Shown here piece after piece: positions 24,622 through 38,796 of a stretch of DNA of 64,000 nucleotides (position 1 is the first letter of the stretch; every line of letters begins with the position of its first letter). The notes under the pieces are model-generated. The model made no database searches and was not told the origin of the DNA. It saw only the letters and a list, made by a program, of their open reading frames with translations. A program made the position numbers and the translations under genes. This DNA comes from an uncultured Oscillospiraceae bacterium. GTDB taxonomy: Bacteria > Bacillota > Clostridia > Oscillospirales > Ruminococcaceae. The stretch is taken from positions 5,671 to 69,670 of the forward strand of contig CABSJT010000001.1 of assembly GCA_902478145.1 (NCBI GenBank). The letters are read 5' to 3'.

Positions 24622-24652
24622 AAACAGCTGCTTTCGGGCGGCTGTTTTTCGT
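24622..24652 (+). terminator. rho-independent terminator-like hairpin + T-tract
   Basis: AACAGCTGCtttcgggcgGCTGTTTTTCGTTTT. Confidence 0.45.
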
Positions 24653-24841: not shown

Positions 24842-25690
24842 ATGTATAGGATTGTCAGAAAGAAAATTCTGAACCCTACAGTTACGCAGATGGAAATTGA
24901 AGCTCCTCTGGTTGCCAAAAAAGCTAAACCGGGGCAGTTTATTATTCTTCGCGTTGATTCCGAGGGTGAAAGAATTCCGCTTACGGTTGCCGGCTGCAAT
25001 GCAGAAGAGGGAACTGTAAAGATCATTTTTCAGATTGTCGGAGCAACCACCGAAGCGCTTAATCACAAGTCTGAGGGCGAATTCATTCAGGACTTTGTAG
25101 GTCCTCTCGGCGTTGCTACACACACCGACGGTATAAAGAAAGTATGTATTATCGGCGGCGGTGTAGGCTGTGCTATTGCAATGCCTATTGCTGAGGAATT
25201 TCACAAGTTGGGCGTTGATGTAACCAGCATTATCGGTTTCCGCAGCAAGGATATTGTTATACTTGAAGATGAATTCGAAGAATATTCCGACCGTGTTGTT
25301 CTTATGACCGACGACGGTTCTTACGGACGTCACGGAAACGTAACGGTTCCGCTTAAAGAAATGCTTGAATCCGGCGAAAAATTCGATATGATTATCACTA
25401 TCGGTCCGCTTATCATGATGAAGTTTGTGGTTGCGACCGCGAAACCTTTTGATATTCCCGTAACAGTTTCGATGAATCCTATCATGATCGACGGAACGGG
25501 AATGTGCGGCGGCTGCCGGCTTACGTTAAATCAGGATGGCAAAAAAGTTATCAAATTTGCTTGCGTTGACGGACCGGATTTCAACGGATATGAAGTTGAT
25601 TTTGACGAGGCTATGTCGCGCGGAAGAATGTACTTTGATTTTGAACGTAAAGCGCACGAAAAAACCTGCAATCTTTTTAAGAACATATAA
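24842..25690 (+). CDS. nfnA: NADH-dependent reduced ferredoxin:NADP oxidoreductase small subunit (NfnA / sulfide dehydrogenase beta, PyrK-like FAD/NAD binding with [2Fe-2S])
   Basis: A 282-aa PyrK-like protein with a C-terminal Cys cluster (GMCGGCRL...FACVDGP). Confidence 0.8.
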   Translation: MYRIVRKKILNPTVTQMEIEAPLVAKKAKPGQFIILRVDSEGERIPLTVAGCNAEEGTVKIIFQIVGATTEALNHKSEGEFIQDFVGPLGVATHTDGIKKVCIIGGGVGCAIAMPIAEEFHKLGVDVTSIIGFRSKDIVILEDEFEEYSDRVVLMTDDGSYGRHGNVTVPLKEMLESGEKFDMIITIGPLIMMKFVVATAKPFDIPVTVSMNPIMIDGTGMCGGCRLTLNQDGKKVIKFACVDGPDFNGYEVDFDEAMSRGRMYFDFERKAHEKTCNLFKNI

Positions 25691-25702
25691 GGAGGAGAAA
25701 TA

Positions 25703-27112
25703 ATGGCTATCGAGCCTAAGAAACATGAAATGCCTACGCAGGACGCGAAGGCAAGAGCCTGCAATTTCAATGAAGTTGCACTTGGCTATACTGCGGAAAT
25801 TGCGGTTGATGAAGCGAATCGCTGTCTTAACTGCAAGAATAAGCCGTGCATCAGCGGCTGTCCCGTAAATATTGAAATTCCCGATTTTATTGACCACATT
25901 AAAAAAGGCGATTTCGAGGGAGCATATCAGGTGATCTCAAAGTCATCATCTCTCCCCGCTGTCTGCGGCAGAGTATGTCCGCAGGAATCACAGTGTGAAA
26001 GCAAATGTACTCTCGGAATTAAATTTGAACCCGTCGGAATAGGCAGACTCGAAAGATTTGTTGCCGATTGGCACAATGAAAATGCGAAGGAACTTCCTAA
26101 GAAGCCCGAATTCAACGGACATAAGGTTGCTGTTGTCGGTTCCGGCCCTTCGGGTCTTACCTGCGCGGGAGACCTTGCGAAGAAAGGTTATAAAGTTACT
26201 GTTTTTGAGGCGCTTCACACAGCGGGCGGAGTACTTGTGTATGGAATTCCCGAATTCAGACTCCCGAAAGCTATTGTAGCCAAGGAAGTAGAAACTCTGA
26301 AAGCTCTTGGCGTTGACATCGAAACAAATGTCGTTATAGGAAAGACGCTCACGGTTGACGAGCTTTTTGAGGACGGATTTGAAGCGGTATTTATCGGTTC
26401 TGGTGCAGGACTTCCTAAGTTCATGGGAATTGAAGGTGAAGGACTTAAAGGTGTATATTCCGCGAATGAATTCCTTACCAGAAGCAATCTTATGAAGGCT
26501 TACCGCGATGATTCGGCTACGCCGATTATGAAAGGCGGACGCGTTGCGGTAGTTGGCGGCGGAAATGTTGCAATGGACGCGGCAAGAACGGCTCTGCGTC
26601 TTGGCGCAGAGGTAAGCATAGTTTATCGCCGTTCAATGGAAGAACTTCCTGCGCGCCGTGAAGAGGTTGAGCACGCAATGGAAGAGGGTATTGATTTTAA
26701 GCTGCTTCACAACCCGGTGCGCATTATCGGATATGAAAATCCCGATGACCCTCGCGATCCCAAAAACGGTTTTGTTAAGGCTATCGAATGTATTCGCATG
26801 GAACTTGGCGAACCTGATGAAAAGGGACGCCGCCGCCCTGTGGAAATTCCGGGAAGCGAATTCACAATGGATGTTGACTGCGTTATAATGGCACTCGGAA
26901 CCTCTCCCAATCCGCTTATCAAGAACACCACGCACGGTCTTGAAACTCAGAAGTGGGGCGGAATTATCGTTGAAGAGGATACGGGTCTGACATCAAGAGA
27001 TGGCGTTTACGCCGGCGGCGACGCGGTAACCGGCGCTGCAACGGTTATTCTTGCCATGGGCGCGGGAAAGACCGCAAGCAAGGCTATTGATGAATACCTT
27101 AGTTCAAAATAA
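25703..27112 (+). CDS. nfnB: NfnB / glutamate synthase small-subunit-like (GltD family) FAD, NADPH and 2x[4Fe-4S] oxidoreductase
   Basis: N-terminal Cys motifs (CLNCKNKPCISGCP, CGRVCPQESQCE) are followed by two Rossmann motifs (VAVVGSGPSG, VAVVGGGNVA). Confidence 0.85.
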   Translation: MAIEPKKHEMPTQDAKARACNFNEVALGYTAEIAVDEANRCLNCKNKPCISGCPVNIEIPDFIDHIKKGDFEGAYQVISKSSSLPAVCGRVCPQESQCESKCTLGIKFEPVGIGRLERFVADWHNENAKELPKKPEFNGHKVAVVGSGPSGLTCAGDLAKKGYKVTVFEALHTAGGVLVYGIPEFRLPKAIVAKEVETLKALGVDIETNVVIGKTLTVDELFEDGFEAVFIGSGAGLPKFMGIEGEGLKGVYSANEFLTRSNLMKAYRDDSATPIMKGGRVAVVGGGNVAMDAARTALRLGAEVSIVYRRSMEELPARREEVEHAMEEGIDFKLLHNPVRIIGYENPDDPRDPKNGFVKAIECIRMELGEPDEKGRRRPVEIPGSEFTMDVDCVIMALGTSPNPLIKNTTHGLETQKWGGIIVEEDTGLTSRDGVYAGGDAVTGAATVILAMGAGKTASKAIDEYLSSK

Positions 27113-27243
27113 AACATATTTTTGGTATTGCACCTATGGTATATCGATAAATGCAATACTGATATGAAAAACAAGCAATTCCGAATACTGTCGGAATGTG
27201 ATACAATTATTATATCAAAAAGTAAAACTGAGGATGGTGCAAC

Positions 27244-28188
27244 ATGAACAAAATCTCCATTATCGGAACCGGCAGTGTCGGCTCCACAATCGCTTATTCC
27301 ATTGCCATGATGGGTATGGCATCGGAAATCGTAATGATCGACATTAACAGCGAAAAAGCGCTCGGTGAAGCGCTCGACATCAGACAGGGAACTCCTTTCT
27401 GCGCTCCCTGCTCGATTTATGCCGGCGATTATCCCGACGCGAAGGACTCCAACATTGTAATCCTTACTTCCGGTATGGCAAGAAAAGCGGGTCAGTCCCG
27501 TCTTGAACTTGCTCAGGTAAATATCGACATTACAAAAACGATTATCCCTGAAATTACAAAGTATGCTCCCGACGCTACATACATTATCGTTTCAAATCCT
27601 GTTGATATTCTGACCTATACTTTCCACAAGATATCCGGACTTCCTGAAAACCGCATTATCGGTTCCGGTACGATTCTTGATACTGCACGTCTTCGTGCGA
27701 GACTTTCCGAATACTACAATATCAGCCAGAACAACGTTCATGCTTATGTTTTCGGTGAGCATGGAGATTCCTCGTTTATTCCTTGGTCTGTTGCAAACAT
27801 TTCAAATGTTCCGATCAATGAGTGCCAGAACATTTTCTCCAGTTCTGATTTCACATATCCCGAGATCAACTATGCTGAAATTGAGGAATATGTAAGAAAG
27901 TCGGGCGGACGTGTTATCGCGCGCAAGGGCGCTACATTCTATGCTGTTTCAATGTCTGTATGTCACATATGTAAGTGCGTTCTCAGCGGTATTGATACAA
28001 CAATGACCGTTTCTACAATGATGCACGGTGAATATGGCATTGAAGACGTATGCCTCAGCACGCTTATCGCTGTCGGACGCAACGGTGTTCGCAATAAGGT
28101 AAACGTTCCGCTTACCGACGATGAAATTGCAAAGCTGCGTTATAGTGCTGACACCTTAAAGGATGTTATCAATAATCTTAAAATATAA
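27244..28188 (+). CDS. mdh: L-lactate/malate dehydrogenase family enzyme, probably malate dehydrogenase
   Basis: An LDH-like fold (ISIIGTGSVG). The substrate-specificity loop GMARKAGQSRLEL has Arg at the Q102-equivalent (MDH-like ARKPGMSR), although the GEHGDS motif is LDH-like. It sits immediately upstream of fumarase. Confidence 0.55.
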   Translation: MNKISIIGTGSVGSTIAYSIAMMGMASEIVMIDINSEKALGEALDIRQGTPFCAPCSIYAGDYPDAKDSNIVILTSGMARKAGQSRLELAQVNIDITKTIIPEITKYAPDATYIIVSNPVDILTYTFHKISGLPENRIIGSGTILDTARLRARLSEYYNISQNNVHAYVFGEHGDSSFIPWSVANISNVPINECQNIFSSSDFTYPEINYAEIEEYVRKSGGRVIARKGATFYAVSMSVCHICKCVLSGIDTTMTVSTMMHGEYGIEDVCLSTLIAVGRNGVRNKVNVPLTDDEIAKLRYSADTLKDVINNLKI

Positions 28189-28205
28189 AGAAAGGTGAAA
28201 ACAAA

Positions 28206-29582
28206 ATGGAATACCGTATCGAACATGACTCCATGGGCGAGATGAAGGTTCCTGCCGATCGCCTTTGGGCGGCACAGACGCAGAGAAGCCACGAGAATTT
28301 TAAAATCGGCGTAGATATCGAAACGATGCCGAGAGAAATTACACACGCATTTGGAATTCTCAAAAAGGCTGCAGCGCTTGCGAATTCAGAACTTAAACCC
28401 GAAAAGATGACTGCGGCAAAGCTCGCAGCTATTTCGGCAGCCTGCGATGAAGTTATTTCCGGAGAGCTCAACAGCCATTTTCCGCTTGTTGTATGGCAGA
28501 CAGGTTCAGGAACGCAGTCGAACATGAATGCTAATGAAGTAATTGCTAACCGCGCGAATCAGATTGCAGGCGAAATGCTTTGCCATCCCAACGATGACAT
28601 AAACATGAGCCAGTCGTCTAACGACACTTTCCCGACTGCGATGCATATTTCCGCCGTTCTCGCGATTGAAGACAAGCTTCTTCCCGCTGTCGAACTTCTT
28701 ATCGCCACTTTCAAGCGCCTTGAGGAAGAAAATGAAGGAATCGTTAAATCGGGACGTACTCACTTACAGGACGCAACTCCGATAAAGTTCAGCCAGGAAA
28801 TTTCTGGTTGGAGAAGCAGCCTTGAAAGAGACGCGGAGCTTCTCAGAATTGCGGTTAAGCCGCTTCACGAGCTCGCGCTCGGCGGAACGGCTGTAGGAAC
28901 AGGACTTAACGCGCCCGCAGGATTTTCCGAGCTTGTTGCCAAGAAGGTTGCCGAACTTACAGGCAAACCGTTTGTAACGGCTTTCAATAAGTTCCACGCG
29001 CTTACATCTAAAGACGAAATCGTTTTTGCTCACGGTGCTATAAAAGCTACCGCCTGTGACATGATGAAAATTGCTAACGACGTTCGCTGGCTCGCAAGCG
29101 GTCCGCGTGACGGTCTCGGTGAAATTCACATTCCCGAAAACGAGCCCGGCTCTTCTATCATGCCCGGCAAGGTAAATCCCACGCAGTGCGAAGCGGTTAC
29201 AATGGTTGCCGTTCAGGTAATGGGAAATGATGTTGCTGTTGGAATGGCTGCTTCTCAGGGTAATTTTGAACTTAATGTGTTCATGCCCGTGACAATATAC
29301 AATTTCTTGCAGTCTGCACGTCTTCTTGCTGAAGCAATCGTTTCGTTCAACAATAACTGTGCTGTCGGAATTACTGCTAACCGCGACAAAATGCACCATA
29401 ATCTTCACAATTCTCTTATGCTCGTTACGGCTCTCAATCCTTACATAGGCTATGAGAATGCCGCTAAGACAGCTAAAAAGGCTTATAAGGACAACATTTC
29501 CTTAAAGGAAGCGTGCGTTGAGCTTGGTTTCCTTACAGCAGAGAAGTTCGATGAAGTTTTCCATCCCGAACAGATGGTTTAA
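28206..29582 (+). CDS. fumC: class II fumarate hydratase
   Basis: The fumarase-specific N-terminus (LWAAQTQRS) and GSSIMPGKVNP are present. Confidence 0.88.
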   Translation: MEYRIEHDSMGEMKVPADRLWAAQTQRSHENFKIGVDIETMPREITHAFGILKKAAALANSELKPEKMTAAKLAAISAACDEVISGELNSHFPLVVWQTGSGTQSNMNANEVIANRANQIAGEMLCHPNDDINMSQSSNDTFPTAMHISAVLAIEDKLLPAVELLIATFKRLEEENEGIVKSGRTHLQDATPIKFSQEISGWRSSLERDAELLRIAVKPLHELALGGTAVGTGLNAPAGFSELVAKKVAELTGKPFVTAFNKFHALTSKDEIVFAHGAIKATACDMMKIANDVRWLASGPRDGLGEIHIPENEPGSSIMPGKVNPTQCEAVTMVAVQVMGNDVAVGMAASQGNFELNVFMPVTIYNFLQSARLLAEAIVSFNNNCAVGITANRDKMHHNLHNSLMLVTALNPYIGYENAAKTAKKAYKDNISLKEACVELGFLTAEKFDEVFHPEQMV

Positions 29583-29596
29583 TCCCAGCGAAAGGA

Positions 29597-30415
29597 ATGG
29601 TCAGAAAAATGAAAGTCAGCTATTTTCCCGGCTGTACTCTCCGAACCAAGGCTAAGGATCTTGATTTTTACGCGCGTAAATGTGCTGAGATTTTAGGCAT
29701 TGAAATGTGTGAAATCAAGAACTGGCAGTGCTGTGGCGGTGTTTTTGTAAGTGCAAAGGACGAGGTAGCTTCCAAGCTGCCGAGCGTCCGCGCTCTTGCT
29801 GCCGCAAGAGATGAAGCGCAGCCTCTTGTTACGGTGTGTTCAGCCTGTCATAATGTAATAAAGCAGACAAACCATGCCATGCGTACCGACGAACAGTTTG
29901 CCTCAAAAGCGAATATCTACATGGCGCAGGACAAAAATCCGACCGAGCCGTATCACGGCGAGACAGAGGTTTATCACTACCTTGAAATGCTCCGCGATAT
30001 TGTCGGATTTGATAAGATAAAGGAAGCGGTCGTAAAGCCGCTTACGGGTAAGAAAGTTGCGGCTTATTATGGCTGTATGCTGCTTCGTCCCGGAAAGGTA
30101 ATGAATTTCGACGATGTTGAAAATCCCCGCATAATGGAGGATTTTATTGCTGCGCTTGGAGCAGAACCTGTTGTTTATGCACAGAGAAATGAGTGCTGCG
30201 GCGGTTATATCGCTCTTGAAGACGCCGCTTCAGCTAAGAAAAAGTCGAACGCGGTAAGCGAAAGTGCGGCTAAAAACGGCGCTGAAATTATCGTTACAGC
30301 CTGTCCGCTTTGCAAGTACAATCTTGTAAAAAATGGCAGTGAAATCCCCGTAGTATACTTTACCGAGCTGCTCGCAGAAGCACTTGGTGTTAAGGAGGAT
30401 ACTCATGCAGAATAA
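29597..30415 (+). CDS. hdrB: heterodisulfide reductase subunit B-like (two CCG domains)
   Basis: Two CCG motifs are present (NWQCCGG, NECCGG), each with flanking Cys residues (FPGCT, YYGCM, VCSAC, CPLC). Confidence 0.8.
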   Translation: MVRKMKVSYFPGCTLRTKAKDLDFYARKCAEILGIEMCEIKNWQCCGGVFVSAKDEVASKLPSVRALAAARDEAQPLVTVCSACHNVIKQTNHAMRTDEQFASKANIYMAQDKNPTEPYHGETEVYHYLEMLRDIVGFDKIKEAVVKPLTGKKVAAYYGCMLLRPGKVMNFDDVENPRIMEDFIAALGAEPVVYAQRNECCGGYIALEDAASAKKKSNAVSESAAKNGAEIIVTACPLCKYNLVKNGSEIPVVYFTELLAEALGVKEDTHAE

Positions 30416-30797
30416 AACCGAACGTCAGAAGGAGCAGATACTTCGCATGAGCGGCGTAAATCCGCTTAAATGTATGCGCTGTGGAAAGTGCTCCGGCACA
30501 TGTCCTTCTTACGATGAAATGGAATATCATCCTCATCAGTTTGTTTACATGGTTGAAACGGGCGACATTGAAAGCCTTATGAAATCGGATTCGATATATA
30601 AGTGTCTTTCATGCTTTGCCTGCGTTGACCGCTGTCCCAGAGGTGTTGAGCCTGCAAAACTGGTTGAGGCTATCAGACTCACGGTTATTCGCCAAAAAGG
30701 CGCGAATCACCTCACGGCGAATGATATTCCCGAGCTTATCGACGAAGATATGCCTCAGCAGGCAATCATGAGCGCTATGCGCAAATATTCTAAGTAA
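30405..30797 (+). CDS. hdrC: heterodisulfide reductase subunit C-like (2x[4Fe-4S] ferredoxin)
   Basis: Two 4Fe-4S motifs are present (CMRCGKCSGTCP and CLSCFACVDRCP). The start is taken at ATG 30405 (AAGGAGG + 6 nt) rather than the track start. Confidence 0.75.
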   Translation: MQNKTERQKEQILRMSGVNPLKCMRCGKCSGTCPSYDEMEYHPHQFVYMVETGDIESLMKSDSIYKCLSCFACVDRCPRGVEPAKLVEAIRLTVIRQKGANHLTANDIPELIDEDMPQQAIMSAMRKYSK

Positions 30798-30814
30798 GAA
30801 AGGAGAAACAGACC

Positions 30815-32809: not shown

Positions 32810-33234
32810 ATGATTATAAGCCGCTTATTGTGGCATTCTGCTGTAACTGGTGTTCGTATGCCGGCGCCGATCTCGCAGGAAACAACAGACTTAATTATCC
32901 GGCAGACGTAAAGATTATCCGTGTGCCTTGCTCCTGTCGAGTAAACCCGATGTTTATTCTCCGTGCTTTCCAGCGCGGTGCTGACGGTGTTATTATCTGC
33001 GGCTGCCACCCCGGCGACTGTCATTACACCTCGGGCAACTATTACACACGCCGCCGTATGGCTCTGCTTTTCTCAATGCTCGATTATCTGGGTATTGAAA
33101 GAGAGCGCACACGCGTTGAGTGGGTAAGTGCGGCTGAAGGCGCAAAGTTTGCCGCAACAATGAATGATTTTGCCGAAAAGGTTGCTTCTCTCGGTGAAAA
33201 CAAGAGATTGGAGGATTTGCGATGCAAGAAATAA
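32800..33234 (+). CDS. mvhD: MvhD-like (methyl-viologen-reducing hydrogenase delta subunit family; FlxD-like) electron-transfer protein
   Basis: The MvhD signature Cys pattern is present (AFCCNWCSY...VPCSCR...IICGCHPGDCH). The start at ATG 32800 (GGAGG + 9 nt) overlaps the hdrA end. Confidence 0.75.
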   Translation: MQVNDYKPLIVAFCCNWCSYAGADLAGNNRLNYPADVKIIRVPCSCRVNPMFILRAFQRGADGVIICGCHPGDCHYTSGNYYTRRRMALLFSMLDYLGIERERTRVEWVSAAEGAKFAATMNDFAEKVASLGENKRLEDLRCKK

Positions 33235-34214
33235 AGCGCGAAATTCTCATTTCCAAGGCTTCCGAAATGCTGAACAGCGGTGCAGTTGACCGCGTTCTCG
33301 GCTGGAAGAAGGGAGAATTCGATTATGATGTAACGCCTGCAATTTTCCGTACAGCAGACGAGCTTGAAAAGGAATTTGTCTGGAACGATTTTTGCGGAGC
33401 GAACTTTTCCAAGTATCTTGTAAAGGAAACAGGCAAGAGCGAGAATAAAATTCTTGTTTTTTTGAAACCGTGTGATACATACAGTTTCAATCAGCTCCTC
33501 ACAGAGCATAGATTTGATCGTGAAAAGGTGTATGCTGTCGGTGTACCCTGCGACGGTATGCTTGACGCAGGTCGTATTAAGGCGGCTGCCGACGGTATTT
33601 CTGCCGTTCATGAGGACGGCGATAAGGTTATCGTCGATACGCTTTACGACGGAAGCCTTACTCTCGACAGAACTGCTGTTCTTCCCGACAGATGTGTAAA
33701 CTGCAAGTCAAAGAAGCACGTTGCGTACGACGAACTCCTCGGAAGCGACGGTGAGGTTATTGACTCTGCAAGATTTGATGAAGTTGAAAAAATCGAGAAG
33801 ATGACTCCCGATGAGCGTTTTGCTTTCTGGCAGAATGAACTTTCACGCTGTATTCGCTGCAATGCCTGCCGTGATGTATGTCCTGCCTGCACCTGCGAAA
33901 AGTGCGTTTTTGACAACCCTAATTCTGGTGTTGAAAATAAGGCTGCTGCGAACTCGTTTGAAGAAAAGATGTTCCATATTATTCGTGCATTTCACGTTGT
34001 AGGGCGCTGCACAGACTGCGGCGAATGCTCGCGCGTATGTCCACAGCACATTCCGCTTCATCTGCTCAACCGTAAGTTCATCAAGGATATTGACAATTTC
34101 TATGGTGAATATCAGGCGGGTGCCGAGGTCGGAAGCCGTGCGCCGATTGTGAATTATACAACAGACGACTTAGAGCCAGGAGAAGCGGTAGAAAGAGGTG
34201 ATGGAAATGCGTAA
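33222..34214 (+). CDS. iron-sulfur cluster-binding oxidoreductase subunit (FlxC-like; two ferredoxin-type Cys motifs)
   Basis: Two ferredoxin-type Cys motifs are present (CIRCNACRDVCPACTCEKC and CTDCGECSRVCPQ), plus an N-terminal FrhB/FdhB-like region. It is translationally coupled to its neighbours. Confidence 0.55.
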   Translation: MQEIKREILISKASEMLNSGAVDRVLGWKKGEFDYDVTPAIFRTADELEKEFVWNDFCGANFSKYLVKETGKSENKILVFLKPCDTYSFNQLLTEHRFDREKVYAVGVPCDGMLDAGRIKAAADGISAVHEDGDKVIVDTLYDGSLTLDRTAVLPDRCVNCKSKKHVAYDELLGSDGEVIDSARFDEVEKIEKMTPDERFAFWQNELSRCIRCNACRDVCPACTCEKCVFDNPNSGVENKAAANSFEEKMFHIIRAFHVVGRCTDCGECSRVCPQHIPLHLLNRKFIKDIDNFYGEYQAGAEVGSRAPIVNYTTDDLEPGEAVERGDGNA

Positions 34215-35229
34215 AATTTCACTTGATAAGCTTAATTCACTTTTTTCCGCAATTTCTGAAACCGAAGCGCTTTATCTGCCCGTTGATACCGAAGCGGGTG
34301 CTAAGTATGAAAAATGGGAAAGCGGAAAAACACTTTCCAACGCTCTCAATACTGTGAGAAGTGCAAAGGACTTCTTCTTCCCTCAGACTGAAAACCTTAT
34401 GGATTTCAAAATGGAAGGGAAGAGCATTGAAGTAATCGATACGCGCAGCGAATGTGAAGATTTTGTTATTTTCGGAGTTCGCGCCTGCGATGTAAAGAGC
34501 TTTGAAGTTCTTGACCGCGTATTTCTTGCTGAACCTGTTGATTCTTATTACAAAAATCGCCGCGATCATGCCGTGATTATGTCTATGGCTTGCACAAAGC
34601 CCCATGAGACTTGCTTCTGCGGCACTTTTGGAATTGACGCTGCAAATCCCGAGGGAGATGTTGTGTGTTACAAGACCGATGACGCTCTTTACATGAATGC
34701 AAAGACCGAAAAAGGCGCAAAGCTGCTTGAAGCGCTTTCTTCAATAACCGAAGAAAGTGACGAAGCTGTGGTAAACGACCAGAAAAAGGTCATTGCGGAA
34801 CGACTTTCAAAGCTTCCGCTCGCAGATCTTTCAGCCGAAGCTTTCGGAAACGGAAAAACCTCGGTATTTTTTGACGCGCCCGAATGGAAAGAACTTTCAG
34901 AATCATGCCTTGGCTGCGGAACATGCACATTTGTATGCCCGACTTGTCAGTGCTACGATATCAAGGATTTCAACACAGGTCACGGCGTAAAGCGTTTCCG
35001 CTGCTGGGATTCGTGTATGTACTCCGAATTTACAAAAATGTCGGCAGGACAGCCCAGACTTACTCAGCTTGAACGTTTCCGTCAGCGCTTTATGCACAAG
35101 CTGGTCTACTATCCGACCAACAATGACGGTCTGTTCTCCTGCGTGGGCTGCGGCAGATGCATGGCTAAATGTCCTATTCAGATGAATATTGTAAAGGTAA
35201 TGAAAAAGTTAGGAGGAAGCATAAAATGA
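34207..35229 (+). CDS. 4Fe-4S dicluster protein, sulfhydrogenase beta (HydB)/AsrA-like (FlxB-like)
   Basis: Cys motifs CLGCGTCTFVCPTCQC and CVGCGRCMAKCP are present. The start is taken at the third ATG (GAGGTG + 6 nt). Confidence 0.65.
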   Translation: MRKISLDKLNSLFSAISETEALYLPVDTEAGAKYEKWESGKTLSNALNTVRSAKDFFFPQTENLMDFKMEGKSIEVIDTRSECEDFVIFGVRACDVKSFEVLDRVFLAEPVDSYYKNRRDHAVIMSMACTKPHETCFCGTFGIDAANPEGDVVCYKTDDALYMNAKTEKGAKLLEALSSITEESDEAVVNDQKKVIAERLSKLPLADLSAEAFGNGKTSVFFDAPEWKELSESCLGCGTCTFVCPTCQCYDIKDFNTGHGVKRFRCWDSCMYSEFTKMSAGQPRLTQLERFRQRFMHKLVYYPTNNDGLFSCVGCGRCMAKCPIQMNIVKVMKKLGGSIK

Positions 35230-36059
35230 TTGATATAAAAGAACCGCTTATCCCTGTGGTTGGCGTTGTTACAGATATCAGAATTGATACTCCCGACGTA
35301 AAGACCTTTCGCGTAGTTACTCCCGACGGCAAGAAGGCTTTTGAACATAAGCCCGGACAGTGCGCAATGCTGTCAATTCCCGGAGTAGGAGAGGCTATGT
35401 TTTCAATAACTTCTTCTCCGACAAATACCGAATTTATGGAATTTTCCATAAAGAAGTGCGGCTGCGTTACCGAGTGGCTTCATTCTATGGAAGTCGGACA
35501 GCAGATCACGATACGCGGACCTTACGGCAACGCATTCCCTGTGGATACGGAATTTGCCGGTCATGATATGCTTTTTATCGCGGGTGGTATCGGACTTGCT
35601 CCGCTTCGTTCCGTTATAAATTATTGCCGTCATTACCGCGATCGTTACGGAAAAATTGATATTGTATACGGTTCGCGCAGTATGCAGGATCTCGTAGACT
35701 ATCAGGAAATTATCAATGAATGGGCTAAGGATACCGGCGTTAATGTTCATCTTACAATCGACCGTGAACAGCCCGAATGGGAAGGTCATGTCGGATTTGT
35801 ACCCAACTATGTTAAGGAACTCGGCTTTTCAACCGATAAGATTGCTATTCTTTGCGGACCGCCTATAATGATCAAATTCACACTTGCGGGACTTCAGGAG
35901 CTTGGATTTGACAAGACTCAGGTGTATACGACTATGGAGCTTCGCATGAAGTGCGGAATAGGCAAGTGCGGTAGATGCAATATCGGTTCAAAGTACGTCT
36001 GCAAGGATGGTCCTGTTTTCCGCTGCGACCAGATCGACGAGCTTCCCGATGAATACTGA
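35226..36059 (+). CDS. FAD/NAD(P)-binding oxidoreductase with C-terminal [2Fe-2S] Cys cluster, sulfhydrogenase gamma (HydG)/AsrB/PyrK-like (FlxA-like)
   Basis: FAD-binding beta-barrel and NAD-binding motifs (MLFIAGGIGLAPL), plus a C-terminal Cys cluster (CGIGKCGRCNIGSKYVCKDGP). The ATGA overlap with the upstream stop sets the start at 35226. Confidence 0.7.
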   Translation: MIDIKEPLIPVVGVVTDIRIDTPDVKTFRVVTPDGKKAFEHKPGQCAMLSIPGVGEAMFSITSSPTNTEFMEFSIKKCGCVTEWLHSMEVGQQITIRGPYGNAFPVDTEFAGHDMLFIAGGIGLAPLRSVINYCRHYRDRYGKIDIVYGSRSMQDLVDYQEIINEWAKDTGVNVHLTIDREQPEWEGHVGFVPNYVKELGFSTDKIAILCGPPIMIKFTLAGLQELGFDKTQVYTTMELRMKCGIGKCGRCNIGSKYVCKDGPVFRCDQIDELPDEY

Positions 36060-36075
36060 TAAGGAGAATTTGAAC

Positions 36076-36750
36076 ATGGAAAATATGGTTAACATTTACC
36101 TGTTCGGCAAGCAGTACAGCGTACCCGACAACCTGACAATTATGCGCGCTATGGAGTACGCCGGTTATCAGCTCGTTCGTGGCTGCGGCTGCCGTAACGG
36201 TTTCTGCGGCGCTTGCGCTACGATTTATCGTATTAAGGGCGACAGAGAACTCAAGACCTGTCTTGCCTGCCAGACAAAGGTTGAAAACAATATGTATATC
36301 GCAACGCTTCCTTTCTTCCCTCTTGTGAAGCAGGTTTACGATATTGAAAAGATTAAGCCTACCGAACAGATAATGATGCAGCTTTATCCCGAAATTTACG
36401 CTTGCGTAGGCTGTAATGCCTGCACAAAGAGCTGCACACAGGAGCTGAACGTTATGCAATACATCGCATACGCCCAGCGCGGTGAGTTTGATAAGTGCGC
36501 CGAAGAATCCTTTGACTGTGTAATGTGCGGCGTTTGTTCGTCTCGCTGCCCCGCAGGCATTTCTCATCCGCAGGTTGCAATGCTCGCACGCCGTCTCAAC
36601 GGAAAGTATCTCGCTCCTAAGACTGAACACCTTGCAAACCGTGTAAAGGAAATTAAGGACGGAACATTTACCGAACTTATTGAAAACCTCATGGGCAAGC
36701 CGATAGAGGAGATAAAAGAACTCTATAATAACAGAGATATAGAGAAGTAA
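36076..36750 (+). CDS. frdB: succinate dehydrogenase/fumarate reductase iron-sulfur subunit-like (2Fe-2S + 4Fe-4S/3Fe-4S)
   Basis: An N-terminal 2Fe-2S ferredoxin-like fold (GCGCRNGFCGACA...C) is followed by CVGCNACTKSC and CVMCGVCSSRCP. Start at ATG 36076 (AAGGAGA + 8 nt). Confidence 0.7.
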   Translation: MENMVNIYLFGKQYSVPDNLTIMRAMEYAGYQLVRGCGCRNGFCGACATIYRIKGDRELKTCLACQTKVENNMYIATLPFFPLVKQVYDIEKIKPTEQIMMQLYPEIYACVGCNACTKSCTQELNVMQYIAYAQRGEFDKCAEESFDCVMCGVCSSRCPAGISHPQVAMLARRLNGKYLAPKTEHLANRVKEIKDGTFTELIENLMGKPIEEIKELYNNRDIEK

Positions 36751-36764
36751 GGAGGATAAAGTCG

Positions 36765-38363
36765 ATGTATTCAAAAGAATTTCAGGAATCCTTGGCGGCA
36801 GTTGAGGTGGCGAGAGCTGAAAACATAGCTTATGAGCCTGCCAGAATGACTGCGAAAGAAAAGGAAGATCTTCTTGCGGCTTATCACCCTGACTATAAGA
36901 AGAGCGAATTTTCTGTTTTAAAAATAGGCCCGAATAAGGGCGAAGAAGTTCCGCATGAGCTTTGCGAAATGCTTCAGGCACACAGCCGTATTTCCGCAAA
37001 TGATGTTGATCTCAACAACGTAAAGTATGACGTTGACGTTCTTATTATCGGCGGCGGCGGAGCAGGTGCTTCTGCGGCTATTGAAGCTGACAATGCGGGC
37101 GCAAAGACCATGATCGTTACAAAACTTCGTATGGGTGACGCAAATACAATGATGGCTGAGGGCGGAATTCAGGCGGCTGACAAACCCAATGACTCTCCCG
37201 CAATCCATTTCGTTGACGCATTCGGCGGCGGACATTACGCTGCTAAACGTGAACTTCTCGCAAAGCTGGTTTGTGACGCTCCCGAAGCTATTCAGTGGCT
37301 TAATGATCTCGGTGTTGAATTTGATAAGGCTCCCGACGGAACAATGATTACCACTCACGGCGGCGGAACTTCGAGAAAGCGTATGCACGCAGCGAAGGAC
37401 TATTCCGGTGCGGAAATCATGCGTACGCTTCGCGACGAAGTTATCAATCGTGGCATTGAAATTGTTGATTTTACTTCGGCGATTGAACTTATCCTTGATG
37501 AAAATGGCAGAGCAGCGGGCGCGGTTCTCATGAATATGGAAACGCATGAACTTATGGTCGCACGCGCTAAAACGGTTATTATCGCAACAGGCGGCGCGGG
37601 ACGTATGCATTATCAGGGCTTCCCGACTTCTAACCACTACGGTGCAACCGCAGACGGTCTTGTGCTTGGTTATCGCGTCGGCGCAAAGCTCCTTTATGCT
37701 GATACTCTCCAGTATCACCCCACAGGTGCGGCATTCCCGCAGCAGATTTTCGGCGCACTTGTTACCGAAAAGGTTCGTTCGCTCGGAGCTAAGCTTGTAA
37801 ATCGTGACGGTAAGGTATTCATGCATCCGCTTGAAACCCGTGACGTTGCGGCAGCTTCCATTATCCGCGAGTGTTCTGACCGTGGCGAGGGCGTAAATAC
37901 CGGCAGTGGTGAGGCTGTATGGCTTGACACTCCTATGATTGAAGCAATAGGCGGCGAAGGCACTATTGAAAAGCGTATTCCTGCAATGATGCGAATGTTT
38001 GCAGGCTGCGGAATTGATATACGCAAGGAACCTATCCTTGTTTACCCTACGCTTCACTATCAGAACGGTGGTCTTGACATCGACGTAAACGGAATGACCA
38101 CAAATGTTGAAAATCTGTTTGTAGCAGGTGAAGCAGTCGGAGGTATTCACGGACGCAACCGTCTTATGGGCAACTCGCTTCTCGACATAATCGTATTCGG
38201 AAGAAGCGCAGGCAAGAACGCTTCCGCGCGTGCTAAGGAAGTTACAGTCGGAAAGCTCACTCTTGATCACATTGCAAAGTTCGACGCAGAGCGTGAAGCG
38301 GCGGGCATAAAAACTGACGCCGTATCTCCGAAGCTTCTGCCCGATTATCGCAGAAAATTATAA
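36765..38363 (+). CDS. frdA: fumarate reductase/succinate dehydrogenase flavoprotein-like subunit (soluble type, non-covalent FAD predicted)
   Basis: A Rossmann motif (DVLIIGGGGAGASAA), the HPT motif (LQYHPTGA), and a C-terminal RNRLMGNSLLD are present. The covalent-FAD His position reads GDANTMMAEGG (Asn, where SdhA/FrdA have RSHTVAAEGG). There is an N-terminal extension of about 90 aa. Confidence 0.72.
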   Translation: MYSKEFQESLAAVEVARAENIAYEPARMTAKEKEDLLAAYHPDYKKSEFSVLKIGPNKGEEVPHELCEMLQAHSRISANDVDLNNVKYDVDVLIIGGGGAGASAAIEADNAGAKTMIVTKLRMGDANTMMAEGGIQAADKPNDSPAIHFVDAFGGGHYAAKRELLAKLVCDAPEAIQWLNDLGVEFDKAPDGTMITTHGGGTSRKRMHAAKDYSGAEIMRTLRDEVINRGIEIVDFTSAIELILDENGRAAGAVLMNMETHELMVARAKTVIIATGGAGRMHYQGFPTSNHYGATADGLVLGYRVGAKLLYADTLQYHPTGAAFPQQIFGALVTEKVRSLGAKLVNRDGKVFMHPLETRDVAAASIIRECSDRGEGVNTGSGEAVWLDTPMIEAIGGEGTIEKRIPAMMRMFAGCGIDIRKEPILVYPTLHYQNGGLDIDVNGMTTNVENLFVAGEAVGGIHGRNRLMGNSLLDIIVFGRSAGKNASARAKEVTVGKLTLDHIAKFDAEREAAGIKTDAVSPKLLPDYRRKL

Positions 38364-38390: not shown

Positions 38391-38711
38391 ATGGTTACAG
38401 ATTTACTCGAAGCACTGATGATATTCTGTTTTGGTCTTTCGTGGCCGATTTCTATTCGCAAATCCTACATTTCTCGCACCGCAAAGGGCAAGAGCCTTTT
38501 CTTTGAAATTTTCCTTCTCGTTGGATATATTTTCGGTATCGTTAAGAAGATTATTGAAGCGACAGGCGGAGAAAAGGAGCTTGGATTTATATTTATCCTG
38601 AGCTTTATCTTCTACATTATCAACTTTGTAGCGATTTCGATAGACGTTGGTTTGTATTTCAGAAACAGAAAGCTTGACCAGGCGGCAGAGCTTGCAGAAA
38701 AGAAATCGTAA
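38391..38711 (+). CDS. small hydrophobic membrane protein (2-3 TM), function unknown
   Basis: A 106-aa protein with hydrophobic segments (LMIFCFGLSWPI, FFEIFLLVGYIFGIV, FIFILSFIFYIINFVAI). It is followed by a terminator. Confidence 0.45.
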   Translation: MVTDLLEALMIFCFGLSWPISIRKSYISRTAKGKSLFFEIFLLVGYIFGIVKKIIEATGGEKELGFIFILSFIFYIINFVAISIDVGLYFRNRKLDQAAELAEKKS

Positions 38712-38720: not shown

Positions 38721-38772
38721 CGATTTAAAGCGGCGCCGCACTATATCGCAGTGATTGTGCGGCGCAGTTTTA
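38721..38772 (+). terminator. rho-independent terminator (GC-rich 9-bp stem + T-tract)
   Basis: GCGCCGCAC-tatatcgcagtgatt-GTGCGGCGC followed by AGTTTTAATTCTTTC. Confidence 0.5.
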
Positions 38773-38796
38773 ATTCTTTCAGGAGGTGGATTTTTT

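What the first reader, a model, noticed from the sequence alone, without database searches (positions are those of the whole stretch)
24842..38363. HdrABC-FlxABCD-like module fused in one gene block to a soluble fumarate reductase, fumarase, MDH and NfnAB
Seen in sequence: 13 same-strand genes sit in a row with short gaps or overlaps. In order they are nfnA, nfnB, an LDH/MDH-family dehydrogenase, fumC, hdrB (two CCG motifs), hdrC, hdrA, an MvhD/FlxD-like gene, two ferredoxin-type Fe-S proteins (FlxC/B-like), and an FAD/NAD(P) [2Fe-2S] protein (FlxA-like). The last two are an SdhB/FrdB-like Fe-S subunit and an FrdA-like flavoprotein. No FrdC/D-type membrane anchor is encoded. Established knowledge: FlxABCD-HdrABC in Desulfovibrio is an NADH-oxidising, flavin-based electron-bifurcating module that reduces a DsrC-type disulfide. 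Methanogen thiol:fumarate reductase (TfrAB) couples Hdr-type CCG domains to fumarate reduction. Type E SdhC is HdrB-like. Inference: here the Hdr/Flx machinery appears wired to fumarate rather than a heterodisulfide. That would give a cytoplasmic NADH-dependent and possibly ferredoxin-coupled (bifurcating or confurcating) fumarate reductase, the terminal step of an OAA to malate to fumarate to succinate operon. I do not know of such a bacterial enzyme being characterised.
Basis: partly seen in the sequence, partly recalled or inferred. Interest (0 to 1): 0.88.

Follow-up and report, generated by a model that had tools for sequence, protein, structure and literature searches.

The report
Predicted Flx-Hdr-coupled soluble fumarate reductase operon
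A gut Clostridia operon joins malate dehydrogenase, fumarase, a membrane-free two-subunit fumarate reductase and an NADH-oxidising Flx-Hdr electron-splitting module, probably to make succinate while also reducing ferredoxin; the idea was already published in 2019-2020 for other bacteria, but I found no report that the enzyme has been purified or assayed.

Summary
Thirteen intact same-strand genes lie at 24842-38363 with the stated domains. Three corrections apply:
- The "FrdB" is not a classical SdhB. It has a [2Fe-2S] motif plus two full [4Fe-4S] motifs.
- The "FrdA" lacks the covalent-FAD histidine (Asn instead) and the C-terminal SdhA domain, and carries an 85-residue N-terminal extension.
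- nfnAB adjacency is not conserved (4 of about 54 relatives).

The 11-gene core mdh-fumC-hdrBCA-mvhD-flxCBA-frdBA keeps its order in every close locus with enough flank. These come from gut and rumen Clostridia (591 confirmed matches).

In distant lineages the frdBA pair sits beside fumarases, aconitase/IDH, sucC, ATP-citrate lyase and dicarboxylate transporters. Its electron-input partners vary: Hdr+Flx, Hdr+[NiFe] hydrogenase, a NuoF-like protein, or none. This supports fumarate as the substrate and supports real Hdr-Frd coupling.

The same operon was described in Pseudoclostridium thermosuccinogenes (2019 preprint; PMC7282089). A tfrAB/flx-hdr linkage was described in tubeworm symbionts (PMC6315080, PMC11636981). 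No biochemical characterisation turned up.

Verdict: a new member of a previously predicted, still untested enzyme type.

The parts
24621..24648 (+). Terminator-like hairpin that closes the upstream unit. An AT-rich region with a candidate extended -10 element (TGATATAAT, 24734-24742) follows, ahead of nfnA.
   Evidence: 12-pair stem followed by a T run; sequence read. The promoter assignment is inference from sequence only.
24842..25690 (+). nfnA-like gene (FAD/NAD-binding protein with a [2Fe-2S] domain). Adjacent here, but not part of the conserved module.
   Evidence: PRK06222, 375 bits against cutoff 220. Not seen upstream of mdh in most relatives.
25703..27112 (+). nfnB/gltD-like gene (Fer4_20 plus Pyr_redox_2).
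   Evidence: TIGR01316, 588 bits against cutoff 472. Its C-terminus was found upstream of mdh only in L001, L008, L012 and L038.
27199..27207 (+). Candidate extended -10 element (TGATACAAT), 37 nt upstream of mdh in the 131-nt nfnB-mdh gap.
   Evidence: Sequence read. It resembles the element ahead of nfnA. Inference only, with no transcript data.
27244..28188 (+). Malate dehydrogenase of the LDH-like type.
   Evidence: Ldh_1_N and Ldh_1_C domains. The closest solved structures are L-LDHs, but the substrate-specificity position (Gln in the aligned LDH) is Arg here: TSGMARKAGQSR against TAGAAQKPGETR. That this position is the Q102 determinant is my own knowledge.
28206..29582 (+). Class II fumarate hydratase (fumC).
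   Evidence: TIGR00979, 698 bits against cutoff 665; Lyase_1 plus FumaraseC_C.
29597..30415 (+). HdrB-like subunit with two CCG domains, the sites of the two non-cubane [4Fe-4S] clusters.
   Evidence: Pfam CCG twice. Full-length alignment to methanogen HdrB (8RVV and 5ODC chains, 107-125 bits). All ten Cys of both CCG motifs are conserved on my reading of that alignment.
30405..30797 (+). HdrC-like protein with two [4Fe-4S] motifs. The ORF opens at 30384; the likely start is the ATG at 30405.
   Evidence: CoB_CoM_SS_C, 65 bits, below cutoff; translation.
30815..32809 (+). HdrA, the flavin-based electron-bifurcating flavoprotein type.
   Evidence: 684 bits, full length (residues 3-661), to Methanothermococcus HdrA 5ODC_A. 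The cluster-binding Cys motifs are conserved.
32800..33234 (+). MvhD/FlxD-like [2Fe-2S] protein. The ORF opens at 32701; the likely start is the ATG at 32800.
   Evidence: Pfam FlpD, 186 bits; translation.
33222..34214 (+). FlxC-like Fe-S protein with a C-terminal 4Fe-4S dicluster domain.
   Evidence: Fer4_8 and Fer4_9, residues 205-277.
34198..35229 (+). FlxB-like Fe-S protein (AsrA / sulfhydrogenase-beta type).
   Evidence: Pfam Fer4_22, 102 bits. NCBIfam ShyB 191 bits and AsrA 150 bits, both below cutoff.
35226..36059 (+). FlxA-like NAD(P)H-binding flavoprotein with a [2Fe-2S] domain. The ORF opens at 35169; the likely start is the ATG at 35226.
   Evidence: FAD_binding_6, NAD_binding_1 and DHODB_Fe-S_bind; AsrB/ShyC-like; translation.
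36076..36750 (+). Small Fe-S subunit of the soluble fumarate reductase, equivalent to the N-terminal half of TfrB. It has one [2Fe-2S] motif and two CxxCxxCxxxC motifs and no CCG domain. The ORF opens at 36007.
   Evidence: The start was chosen by comparison with the natural fusion protein P0122. It lies directly next to the frdA-like gene (upstream in nearly all cases; downstream in L099 and L101) in 75 of 80 distant loci.
36765..38363 (+). Flavoprotein subunit of the soluble fumarate reductase (TfrA-like).
   Evidence: FAD_binding_2, 232 bits. The residues aligned with E. coli FrdA in the conserved motifs (QYHPTG, TE, TRD, LHYQNGG, NRLMGN) are retained. I identify these from my own knowledge as H232, T244/E245, R287, H355 and R390. 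The residue aligned with the covalent-FAD His44 is Asn (GDANT). The nearest fold is E. coli FrdA.
38391..38711 (+). 106-aa hydrophobic membrane protein of unknown family, 27 nt after frdA.
   Evidence: At this position close relatives carry either this protein or an AAE-family (Asp-Al_Ex) permease of about 420 aa.
38755..41198 (+). rex-like redox regulator (38755-39426), a NuoE/HymA-like [2Fe-2S] protein (39419-39697) and an [FeFe] hydrogenase (39741-41198). These are variable neighbours and possibly in the same transcript.
   Evidence: No convincing + strand terminator between frdA and 41203. Adjacency was detected in only 13-24 of the 80 close loci.

Best explanation
Genes 27244-38363 encode a cytoplasmic route from oxaloacetate to succinate. 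The last step is carried out by a membrane-free, two-subunit fumarate reductase that takes its electrons from an NADH-oxidising FlxABCD-HdrABC module.

Proposed path:
1. NADH is oxidised at FlxA.
2. Electrons pass through FlxB, FlxC and MvhD to the FAD of HdrA.
3. There the electron pair is split.
4. One electron goes uphill to ferredoxin through the HdrA ferredoxin domains.
5. The other goes downhill through HdrC and HdrB into the [4Fe-4S] and [2Fe-2S] clusters of the small Frd subunit.
6. It ends at the non-covalently bound FAD of the large subunit, which reduces fumarate.

Net reaction: 2 NADH + oxidised ferredoxin + fumarate gives 2 NAD+ + reduced ferredoxin + succinate.

Shown here: gene content, conserved residues, conserved synteny, and linkage of the Frd pair to TCA-cycle genes and to Hdr in many lineages. 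Inferred: physical complex formation, bifurcation, ferredoxin as the second acceptor, and direct (thiol-free) transfer from HdrB to FrdB.
For: Domain content of all genes.

Flavoprotein and MDH:
- The flavoprotein keeps the residues aligned with the E. coli FrdA conserved active-site motifs and has Asn at the covalent-FAD His position. The Asn is invariant across eight diverse family members. From my own knowledge of E. coli FrdA mutants, this fits a one-way fumarate reducer.
- The MDH has Arg at the LDH Q102 position.

Hdr subunits:
- HdrA is full-length and scores 684 bits against the structurally characterised bifurcating HdrA.
- HdrB keeps all ten CCG cysteines.

Synteny and linkage:
- The 11-gene order is identical in all close loci with enough flank.
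- A natural FrdB-FrdA fusion exists (P0122).
- In a sample of distant homologues, 12 of 30 sequence clusters have Hdr/MvhD genes next to frdBA in several different arrangements. One is an archaeal locus (L161). Another has a [NiFe] hydrogenase in place of Flx (L096).
- The frdBA pair independently neighbours class I fumarase (L086, L106, L162), aconitase/IDH/sucC (L089, L099), ATP-citrate lyase (L147) and dicarboxylate-type transporters (L162 DASS; AAE permease after frdA in about half of the close relatives).

Published support:
- In P. thermosuccinogenes the equivalent operon is co-regulated (about 4-fold up at low CO2).
- Added H2 there almost abolished succinate formation, which fits ferredoxin coupling (PMC7282089).
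Against: No protein, transcript or activity data exist for this organism.

The flavoprotein is below the curated cutoff of every listed flavoprotein model, including TfrA, SdhA/FrdA and NadB, so the substrate assignment rests on residues and context.

The HdrB site is fully conserved for disulfide chemistry. This could mean that a thiol/disulfide intermediate is still used.

Seven distant loci with at least 5 kb on both sides have frdBA without Hdr. Some have a NuoF-like partner instead. The Frd pair therefore does not need Hdr, and NADH-to-fumarate transfer need not be bifurcating.

No ferredoxin gene lies in the block.

No Rex operator was found near the operon.
Confidence: 0.58

Rival explanations
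1. Thiol-mediated relay. Flx-HdrABC reduces an unidentified disulfide (a small thiol or a DsrC-like protein), as proposed for Desulfovibrio. The reduced thiol is re-oxidised at a CCG site to feed FrdAB, as in methanogen thiol:fumarate reductase. Bifurcation still occurs, but fumarate is only the indirect acceptor.
For: HdrB keeps both complete CCG motifs. The best NCBIfam match of the flavoprotein is TfrA, and the small subunit matches the N-terminus of TfrB. [quoted passage not shown]
Against: The Frd small subunit has no CCG domain, so only HdrB could handle a thiol. No DsrC/TusA-like gene lies in the block or its immediate neighbours. The tight hdrB-frdB-frdA adjacency across lineages fits docking better than a diffusible carrier.
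Confidence: 0.17
2. Non-bifurcating NADH:fumarate oxidoreductase. The Flx-Hdr proteins serve only as an electron wire, and no ferredoxin is reduced.
For: A simpler frdBA plus NuoF-like arrangement exists in other lineages (L086, L162). This shows that an NADH-linked version without HdrA is viable. NADH to fumarate is strongly exergonic on its own.
Against: HdrA is conserved at a level typical of bifurcating enzymes, with both ferredoxin domains intact. Keeping seven extra Fe-S/flavin genes in strict synteny across hundreds of genomes is hard to explain for a simple wire. The H2 effect on P. thermosuccinogenes points to ferredoxin involvement.
Confidence: 0.12
3. The flavoprotein is not a fumarate reductase. 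It would be an L-aspartate oxidase or a reductase for another unsaturated acid, and the fumC/mdh adjacency would be coincidental.
For: NadB shares the same catalytic residues and scores almost as well (272 bits; 174 bits to 1CHU). FAD_binding_2 reductases in gut bacteria have diverse substrates (my own knowledge).
Against: It has an obligate Fe-S partner that is sometimes fused to it. It is independently linked to fumarases, TCA and rTCA genes and dicarboxylate transporters in at least six unrelated contexts. It fails the NadB cutoff.
Confidence: 0.05
4. The module runs in reverse. Succinate oxidation would be coupled to NAD+ reduction by confurcation with reduced ferredoxin.
For: Flavin-based bifurcating enzymes are often reversible (my own knowledge).
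Against: The covalent-FAD histidine is replaced by Asn throughout the family. In E. coli FrdA that change abolishes succinate oxidation but not fumarate reduction (my own knowledge). The neighbours (mdh, fumC and, in relatives, an AAE-family exporter-type permease) fit a reductive, succinate-excreting branch. P. thermosuccinogenes excretes succinate.
Confidence: 0.04

Closest known systems
'Succinate operon' of Pseudoclostridium (Acetivibrio) thermosuccinogenes (Koendjbiharie & van Kranenburg 2019 preprint; Koendjbiharie et al. 2020, PMC7282089)
   Same: Same described layout: fumarate hydratase, seven Flx-Hdr genes, two fumarate reductase genes, then a hypothetical membrane or transport protein. 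Same proposed function: NADH-dependent, ferredoxin-reducing fumarate reduction in a Clostridia member.
   Different: The window adds an LDH-like MDH in front and, in this lineage only, nfnAB. It comes from a mesophilic gut lineage (relatives include Yeguia hominis and Eubacterium sp. CAG:841). Sequence-level orthology to the P. thermosuccinogenes genes could not be tested, because that genome was not retrievable with the tools. The published system is itself only predicted, with transcript data.
tfrAB interspersed with flxABCD-hdrABC in the rTCA gene clusters of tubeworm symbionts and Thioflavicoccus mobilis (PMC6315080; PMC11636981)
   Same: A TfrA-like flavoprotein plus an Fe-S subunit genetically linked to Flx-Hdr, with a proposed direct electron hand-off to fumarate reduction. 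Gammaproteobacterial homologues of the window flavoprotein share its N-terminal extension and the Asn at the covalent-FAD position (P0129, 45% identity to the window protein).
   Different: There it sits inside an autotrophic rTCA cluster with korABCD, aclAB, pntAB and rnf. Here it is in a fermentative mdh-fumC operon. The P0129-like loci I sampled showed no Hdr within 10 kb.
Methanogen thiol:fumarate reductase TfrAB
   Same: Soluble and anchor-less. The flavoprotein is the best NCBIfam match. The Fe-S subunit has the same [2Fe-2S] N-terminal segment. My recollection that TfrB also carries two [4Fe-4S] clusters is my own knowledge. CCG-domain chemistry is associated with both.
   Different: TfrB carries its own fused CCG domains and oxidises CoM-SH plus CoB-SH. 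Here the CCG domains are on a separate HdrB that belongs to a full HdrABC. The flavoprotein scores 328 bits against a cutoff of 718 and lacks the C-terminal third of TfrA (model positions 5-410 of 546).
FlxABCD-HdrABC of Desulfovibrio vulgaris (Ramos et al. 2015)
   Same: The same seven protein types at domain level.
   Different: The Desulfovibrio system is linked to ethanol metabolism and DsrC reduction (as cited, and my own knowledge). Here no adh or dsrC is adjacent, and the partner is a fumarate reductase.
Classical quinol:fumarate reductase / succinate dehydrogenase (FrdABCD, SdhABCD)
   Same: Same flavoprotein fold and the same conserved active-site motifs.
   Different: No covalent-FAD His. 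No C-terminal helical domain. The Fe-S subunit has two four-Cys motifs where a [3Fe-4S] site would be expected. No FrdC/D-type anchor. No sign of a quinone link.

Membership tests
FlxABCD-HdrABC NADH dehydrogenase/heterodisulfide reductase | Co-located genes for FlxA (FAD/NAD(P)-binding plus [2Fe-2S]), FlxB and FlxC (Fe-S proteins), FlxD (MvhD-like), HdrA, HdrB (two CCG domains) and HdrC. | tested here: met
   All seven domain types are present in one same-strand run, 29597-36059.
FlxABCD-HdrABC NADH dehydrogenase/heterodisulfide reductase | Reduces a DsrC-type or other disulfide; linked to ethanol or sulfate metabolism. | tested here: not met
   No DsrC/TusA-like or adh gene lies in the block or its flanks. 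Only the 64-kb window was examined.
Flavin-based electron-bifurcating HdrA | Full-length HdrA with a thioredoxin-reductase-like FAD domain, an inserted and a C-terminal ferredoxin domain, and the conserved Cys motifs. | tested here: met
   684 bits over residues 3-661 to 5ODC_A, with the Cys motifs aligned. Bifurcating activity itself cannot be tested here.
Thiol:fumarate reductase TfrAB | TfrA equivalog-level similarity. | tested here: not met
   NF004900 scores 328 bits against cutoff 718. Only model positions 5-410 of 546 are covered.
Thiol:fumarate reductase TfrAB | TfrB is a single protein that joins an SdhB-like Fe-S part to C-terminal CCG domains. | tested here: not met
   The small subunit matches only TfrB positions 19-94. 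The CCG domains are on a separate HdrB, which matches TfrB positions 376-471.
Quinol:fumarate reductase / succinate dehydrogenase (complex II) | Covalent 8-alpha-histidyl FAD (the His in the SHT/AHT motif). | tested here: not met
   Asn replaces His (GDANT against RSHTV in E. coli FrdA). The Asn is invariant in eight diverse family members.
Quinol:fumarate reductase / succinate dehydrogenase (complex II) | Catalytic dicarboxylate-site residues. In E. coli FrdA numbering, from my own knowledge: H232, T244, R287, H355, R390. | tested here: met
   The corresponding motifs are all conserved in the alignment to 3P4P_A and across the family.
Quinol:fumarate reductase / succinate dehydrogenase (complex II) | C-terminal helical domain (Succ_DH_flav_C), an SdhB with a [3Fe-4S] site, and membrane anchor subunits. 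| tested here: not met
   No Succ_DH_flav_C hit. The small subunit has two complete four-Cys motifs. The only membrane protein nearby matches no Frd/Sdh anchor family.
L-aspartate oxidase (NadB) | Equivalog-level similarity; a stand-alone flavoprotein with no Fe-S partner. | tested here: not met
   TIGR00551 scores 272 bits against cutoff 452. An Fe-S partner gene lies directly next to it in 75 of 80 distant loci and is fused to it in P0122.
P. thermosuccinogenes-type 'succinate operon' | Gene order: fumarate hydratase, seven Flx-Hdr genes, two fumarate reductase genes, one hypothetical membrane protein. | tested here: met
   Window order is fumC, hdrB, hdrC, hdrA, mvhD, flxC, flxB, flxA, frdB, frdA, then the 106-aa membrane protein. 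This matches the description in PMC7282089. Sequence orthology was not tested.
NfnAB | NfnA (PRK06222-type) and NfnB (GltD-type with Fer4_20) as adjacent genes. | tested here: met
   375 bits against 220 and 588 against 472. The function (NADH-dependent ferredoxin:NADP+ oxidoreductase) is inferred from family membership only.
Malate dehydrogenase (LDH-like) | Arg at the substrate-discriminating position (Q102 of LDH). | tested here: met
   MARKAGQSR aligned to AAQKPGETR of 4M1Q. The HMMs are ambiguous: the L-LDH model passes (359 against 339) and the MDH model PRK06223 falls just short (274.5 against 283).

The most novel reading that the evidence does not exclude
FlxABCD-HdrABC and FrdAB form one soluble supercomplex in which HdrB passes electrons straight to the Frd Fe-S subunit with no thiol/disulfide intermediate. 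This would be the first Hdr-type flavin-based bifurcating enzyme whose high-potential acceptor is a carbon-carbon double bond. The input modules would be interchangeable across lineages (Flx for NADH, Mvh-type [NiFe] hydrogenase for H2). The enzyme would be a widespread, so far unrecognised way for quinone-free gut Clostridia to gain energy from succinate formation.
Probability: 0.4. Interest if true: 0.75.

Novelty: new member of a known kind. Interest (0 to 1): 0.5.

Why it matters
If the prediction is right, fumarate reduction in these quinone-free anaerobes is not a plain electron sink. Each succinate made would also yield reduced ferredoxin, which can drive H2 formation or an Rnf ion pump. 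That changes the ATP and redox budget of succinate fermentation.

The operon occurs in several hundred species-level genomes of gut and rumen Clostridia, so it could be a major, overlooked source of intestinal succinate. Related versions appear in autotrophic rTCA clusters and in archaea.

The enzyme would add a new acceptor class to Hdr-type bifurcation. A cultured carrier (Yeguia hominis NSJ-40, L007) and the published P. thermosuccinogenes system make it directly testable.

Tried and rejected
- **Rex operator search.** TTGTKAANNNNTTMACAA with up to 2 mismatches gave two hits, both far from the operon and no more than chance. No evidence for Rex control from sequence.
- **Terminator scan.** No convincing + strand terminator between 24648 and 41203, so operon boundaries cannot be set from sequence. 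The nfnB-mdh split rests on a candidate promoter and on non-conserved adjacency.
- **The 106-aa membrane protein.** Only a sub-threshold DUF2304 match (E = 0.014). I considered an FrdC/D-like anchor role and set it aside, because relatives have an AAE permease at this position instead. That is not proof.
- **2019 preprint.** Not held in the library.
- **Literature searches for a characterised enzyme.** The phrase 'bifurcating fumarate reductase' gave no paper. The other combinations gave only the predictive papers. 'Yeguia' plus 'succinate' gave nothing.
- **AlphaFold model of the flavoprotein.** Only moderate quality (pLDDT 74.6, low around the active-site loops). The fold search returned the expected FrdA/SdhA/NadB set without discriminating among them. 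The model said nothing useful about the N-terminal extension.
- **Sequence scores.** They do not separate Frd, Sdh and NadB for this protein. The assignment rests on context.
- **Fusion and multimer modelling.** The natural FrdB-FrdA fusion P0122 and any multimer were outside the stated limits of the structure tool, so I did not submit them.

Full report
**1. What is in the sequence**

The ORF listing shows 13 intact genes on the + strand between 24842 and 38363. Neighbouring genes either overlap by a few bases or are up to 17 nt apart. The one exception is a 131-nt gap between the second and third genes.

Pfam and NCBIfam scans give, in order:
- an NfnA-like protein (PRK06222, 375 bits, cutoff 220);
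- an NfnB/GltD-like protein (TIGR01316, 588 against 472);
- an LDH/MDH-family dehydrogenase;
- a class II fumarase (TIGR00979, 698 against 665);
- an HdrB-like protein with two CCG domains;
- an HdrC-like dicluster protein;
- HdrA;
- an MvhD/FlpD protein;
- a dicluster Fe-S protein;
- an AsrA/sulfhydrogenase-beta-like Fe-S protein (Fer4_22);
- an FAD/NAD-binding [2Fe-2S] protein of the AsrB/sulfhydrogenase-gamma type;
- a small protein with one [2Fe-2S] and two [4Fe-4S] motifs;
- a FAD_binding_2 flavoprotein.

Reading the translations moves four starts downstream of the first possible codon: hdrC to 30405, mvhD to 32800, flxA to 35226 and the small Frd subunit to about 36076. This leaves the usual pattern of short overlaps and small gaps.

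A strong terminator-like hairpin at 24621-24648 closes the preceding unit.

**2. Corrections to the observation**

*The flavoprotein is not an ordinary FrdA.* It is below the curated cutoff of every NCBIfam flavoprotein model listed (the best 25 of 45 families matched). The key scores are TfrA 328 against 718, SdhA/FrdA 280 against 567 and NadB 272 against 452. It has no Succ_DH_flav_C domain and begins with about 85 residues that match nothing.

Aligned to E. coli FrdA, it keeps all the conserved active-site motifs:
- QYHPTG, with His232;
- TE, with Thr244/Glu245;
- TRD, with Arg287;
- LHYQNGG, with His355;
- NRLMGN, with Arg390.

The residue numbering and roles are my own knowledge. The histidine that carries covalent FAD (His44) is Asn here (GDANT). 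That Asn is invariant in eight members of the family that share only 37-45% identity with the first sequence of the alignment. From knowledge of E. coli FrdA His44 mutants, non-covalent FAD allows fumarate reduction but not succinate oxidation.

*The small subunit is only remotely SdhB-like* (E about 1e-3). Its cysteine pattern is C-x4-C-x2-C-x14-C plus two complete CxxCxxCxxxC motifs. Its N-terminus matches the N-terminus of methanogen TfrB.

*The dehydrogenase is closest overall to L-lactate dehydrogenases.* It nevertheless has Arg where LDHs have Gln102 (MARKAGQSR against AAQKPGETR). That is the classical switch to oxaloacetate specificity, so 'MDH' is the better call.

*HdrB and HdrA are well conserved.* HdrB aligns over its full length with methanogen HdrB, and on my reading of that alignment it keeps all ten cysteines of the two CCG motifs. 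HdrA scores 684 bits over residues 3-661 against the structurally characterised bifurcating HdrA 5ODC, with the cluster motifs intact.

**3. Conservation in close relatives**

The best 80 are 82-96% identical. They come from gut and rumen Clostridia labelled Acutalibacteraceae, Oscillospiraceae, Ruminococcaceae and Christensenellaceae. They include the cultured Yeguia hominis NSJ-40 (L007) and Eubacterium sp. CAG:841 (L014).

In every locus whose flank reaches far enough, the order mdh-fumC-hdrB-hdrC-hdrA-mvhD-flxC-flxB-flxA-frdB-frdA is kept on one strand.

nfnAB is not part of this unit. The C-terminus of nfnB is detectable upstream of mdh in only four of about 54 loci. The nfnB-mdh gap holds a candidate extended -10 element (TGATACAAT, 27199-27207) that resembles one ahead of nfnA. 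These promoter readings are inference.

Downstream of frdA, relatives carry one of two genes:
- the same 106-aa membrane protein as the window, or
- a permease of about 420 aa with two Asp-Al_Ex domains. From my own knowledge, this is the transporter family of the Corynebacterium succinate exporter SucE.

rex, a NuoE-like gene and an [FeFe] hydrogenase follow in the window, but tblastn found them in only 13-24 of the 80 close loci.

**4. Evidence from distant relatives**

A full-library profile search found full-length homologues with the same N-terminal extension at 41-56% identity. One is a natural fusion of the small and large subunits (P0122, 727 aa). Members are annotated from Gammaproteobacteria and Thiotrichales (P0129), from Bathyarchaeota (P0363) and from a Prochlorococcus genome.

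A metagenome scan seeded with these sequences returned 80 loci.
- The small-subunit gene lies directly next to the flavoprotein gene in 75 of them, upstream in nearly all.
- Grouped at 70% identity, the flavoproteins (these 80 loci plus L161 and L162) fall into 30 clusters, and 12 of these show Hdr/MvhD genes next to frdBA.

The Hdr arrangements differ between lineages:
- hdrC-hdrB-frdB-frdA;
- frdB-frdA-hdrC-hdrB-hdrA-mvhD;
- hdrA-mvhD-flxC-flxB-flxA-frdB-frdA.

In L096 the Hdr genes are followed by the small and large subunits of a [NiFe] hydrogenase and its protease, in place of Flx. In the bathyarchaeotal locus L161 the order is POR-hdrA-mvhD-CCG protein-frdB-frdA.

Seven loci with at least 5 kb on both sides lack Hdr:
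- L086 and L162 have a divergent class I fumarase and a NuoF-like NADH-binding protein right after frdA. L162 also has a DASS transporter.
- L089 is aconitase-IDH-frdB-frdA-sucC.
- L099 is prpD-prpF-frdA-frdB-aconitase-IDH.
- L147 is ATP-citrate lyase-frdB-frdA.
- L106 has class I fumarase upstream and a family III CoA-transferase downstream.
- L098 is uninformative.

Two conclusions follow. First, the frdBA pair is linked again and again, independently, to enzymes that make fumarate or use succinate. This is strong contextual evidence that its substrate is fumarate/succinate rather than aspartate or another enoate. Second, the pair is a portable catalytic core that accepts electrons from interchangeable input modules. 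Hdr is the commonest of these, so the Hdr-Frd linkage in the window is functional rather than accidental.

**5. Most likely mechanism**

Shown: the gene content, the residues and the linkage.

Inferred:
1. NADH is oxidised at FlxA.
2. Electrons travel through FlxB, FlxC and MvhD to the HdrA flavin, where the pair is split.
3. The low-potential electron reduces ferredoxin.
4. The high-potential electron runs through HdrC and HdrB into the Frd Fe-S subunit and on to the non-covalent FAD, which reduces fumarate.

With standard potentials of about -320 mV (NADH), -450 mV (ferredoxin) and +30 mV (fumarate), 2 NADH + oxidised ferredoxin + fumarate gives 2 NAD+ + reduced ferredoxin + succinate, and the reaction is exergonic (my own knowledge and arithmetic). 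Reduced ferredoxin could then be used by the neighbouring [FeFe] hydrogenase or by an Rnf complex. Neither link was tested.

The main uncertainty is how electrons leave HdrB. Its disulfide-reducing site is fully conserved, so a thiol intermediate cannot be excluded. However, the Frd small subunit has no CCG domain with which to re-oxidise a thiol, and no thiol-carrier gene is nearby. HdrB plus the small subunit together look like a split TfrB. I give the direct-wire bifurcating model about 0.4 on its own. I give the broader statement about 0.58, namely an Flx-Hdr-fed cytoplasmic fumarate reductase that probably bifurcates.

**6. Comparison with what is known**

Koendjbiharie and co-workers described a 'succinate operon' in Pseudoclostridium thermosuccinogenes. 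It has one fumarate hydratase gene, seven Flx-Hdr genes, two fumarate reductase genes and a hypothetical protein that may be a transporter. They proposed that fumarate reduction is coupled to ferredoxin reduction. They reported about 4-fold co-induction at low CO2 and noted that added H2 almost abolishes succinate formation (PMC7282089, citing their 2019 preprint, which I could not read). The window has exactly this gene count and order.

Independently, Rubin-Blum et al. noted tfrAB interspersed with flxABCD-hdrABC in the rTCA clusters of tubeworm symbionts and Thioflavicoccus mobilis, and suggested a complex that feeds the fumarate reductase (PMC6315080). A 2024 study still calls this a theoretical model and lists Hdr-Flx among the complexes of unknown function (PMC11636981).

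Searches for a biochemical characterisation found nothing.

The window is therefore a new member of a previously predicted, still uncharacterised enzyme type. It is not a member of complex II proper, of TfrAB or of NadB. Defining features of each were tested and failed (see the membership table).

**7. What this analysis may add**

I cannot tell whether the unread preprint already covers these points:
- the very wide distribution in gut and rumen Clostridia;
- the alternative input modules (Mvh-type hydrogenase, NuoF-like protein);
- the family-wide Asn at the covalent-FAD position;
- the natural subunit fusion;
- the AAE-type permease at the operon end;
- the Arg102 signature of the MDH;
- the finding that nfnAB is an incidental neighbour.

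**8. Verdict**

Interest is moderate (0.5). This is a credible, widespread and experimentally tractable candidate for a new class of bifurcating reductase, but it has already been proposed in the literature and nothing here goes beyond prediction.

Noticed in passing
L007:11628-12890 and L075:11623-13005; also about half of L001-L080, directly after frdA: In many close relatives the gene after frdA is a permease of about 420-460 aa with two Asp-Al_Ex domains (AAE family, which from my own knowledge includes the Corynebacterium succinate exporter SucE). It takes the place of the window's 106-aa membrane protein. The two alternatives look mutually exclusive at this position.
   Followed up: partly
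L096:9248-18222: frdB-frdA-hdrC-hdrB-hdrA-mvhD is followed by [NiFe] hydrogenase small and large subunits and a HycI-type protease. This looks like an H2-driven version of the same module, in an unidentified metagenome organism, with a 2-oxoacid:ferredoxin oxidoreductase gene upstream.
   Followed up: partly
L162:6984-14984 and L086:6607-12491: frdB-frdA is followed by a NuoF-like protein (Complex1_51K plus NADH_4Fe-4S), with a divergent class I fumarase. L162 also has a DASS (Na_sulph_symp) transporter. This suggests a simpler NADH:fumarate reductase with no Hdr. The L162 flavoprotein is 689 aa, with an unexplained extra segment.
   Followed up: partly
P0122 (727 aa, NCBI-derived contig of 7.7 kb): A natural single-chain fusion of the small Fe-S subunit and the flavoprotein. 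It would be a good target for structure prediction of the subunit interface.
   Followed up: no
P0135/P0286 (542 aa): A full-length homologue, 41% identical to the window protein over the matched stretch. It has the N-terminal extension, and one cluster member is annotated from Prochlorococcus sp. MIT 1201. This is an unexpected host for an anaerobe-type soluble fumarate reductase.
   Followed up: no
L020 and L040: Two MAG contigs labelled Sphaerochaetaceae and Bacteroidaceae carry the whole operon at 87-95% protein identity to the Clostridia version. This is more likely a binning or labelling error than recent transfer.
   Followed up: no
window 6084-10034: Aconitase (6084-8024), a TraX-family membrane protein (8021-8764) and isocitrate dehydrogenase (8817-10034) lie about 17 kb upstream of the reductive branch genes, on the same strand. 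Together with mdh-fumC-frd they would give a branched, incomplete TCA pathway.
   Followed up: partly
window 10734-19014 (- strand): An arginine biosynthesis cluster: ornithine carbamoyltransferase, acetylornithine aminotransferase, ArgJ, ArgC-like, argininosuccinate lyase and argininosuccinate synthase. Argininosuccinate lyase releases fumarate.
   Followed up: no
window 38755-41231: A Rex-like regulator, a short NuoE/HymA-like [2Fe-2S] protein (92 aa) and a 485-aa [FeFe] hydrogenase follow the operon. No intervening terminator was found, and a perfect 12-bp-stem hairpin lies at 41203-41231. No Rex operator was found near the operon.
   Followed up: partly
window 24734-24742 and 27199-27207: Near-identical TGTGATA(T/C)AAT elements lie ahead of nfnA and ahead of mdh. 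They may be extended -10 promoters, which would make these two separately started but similarly controlled units.
   Followed up: no
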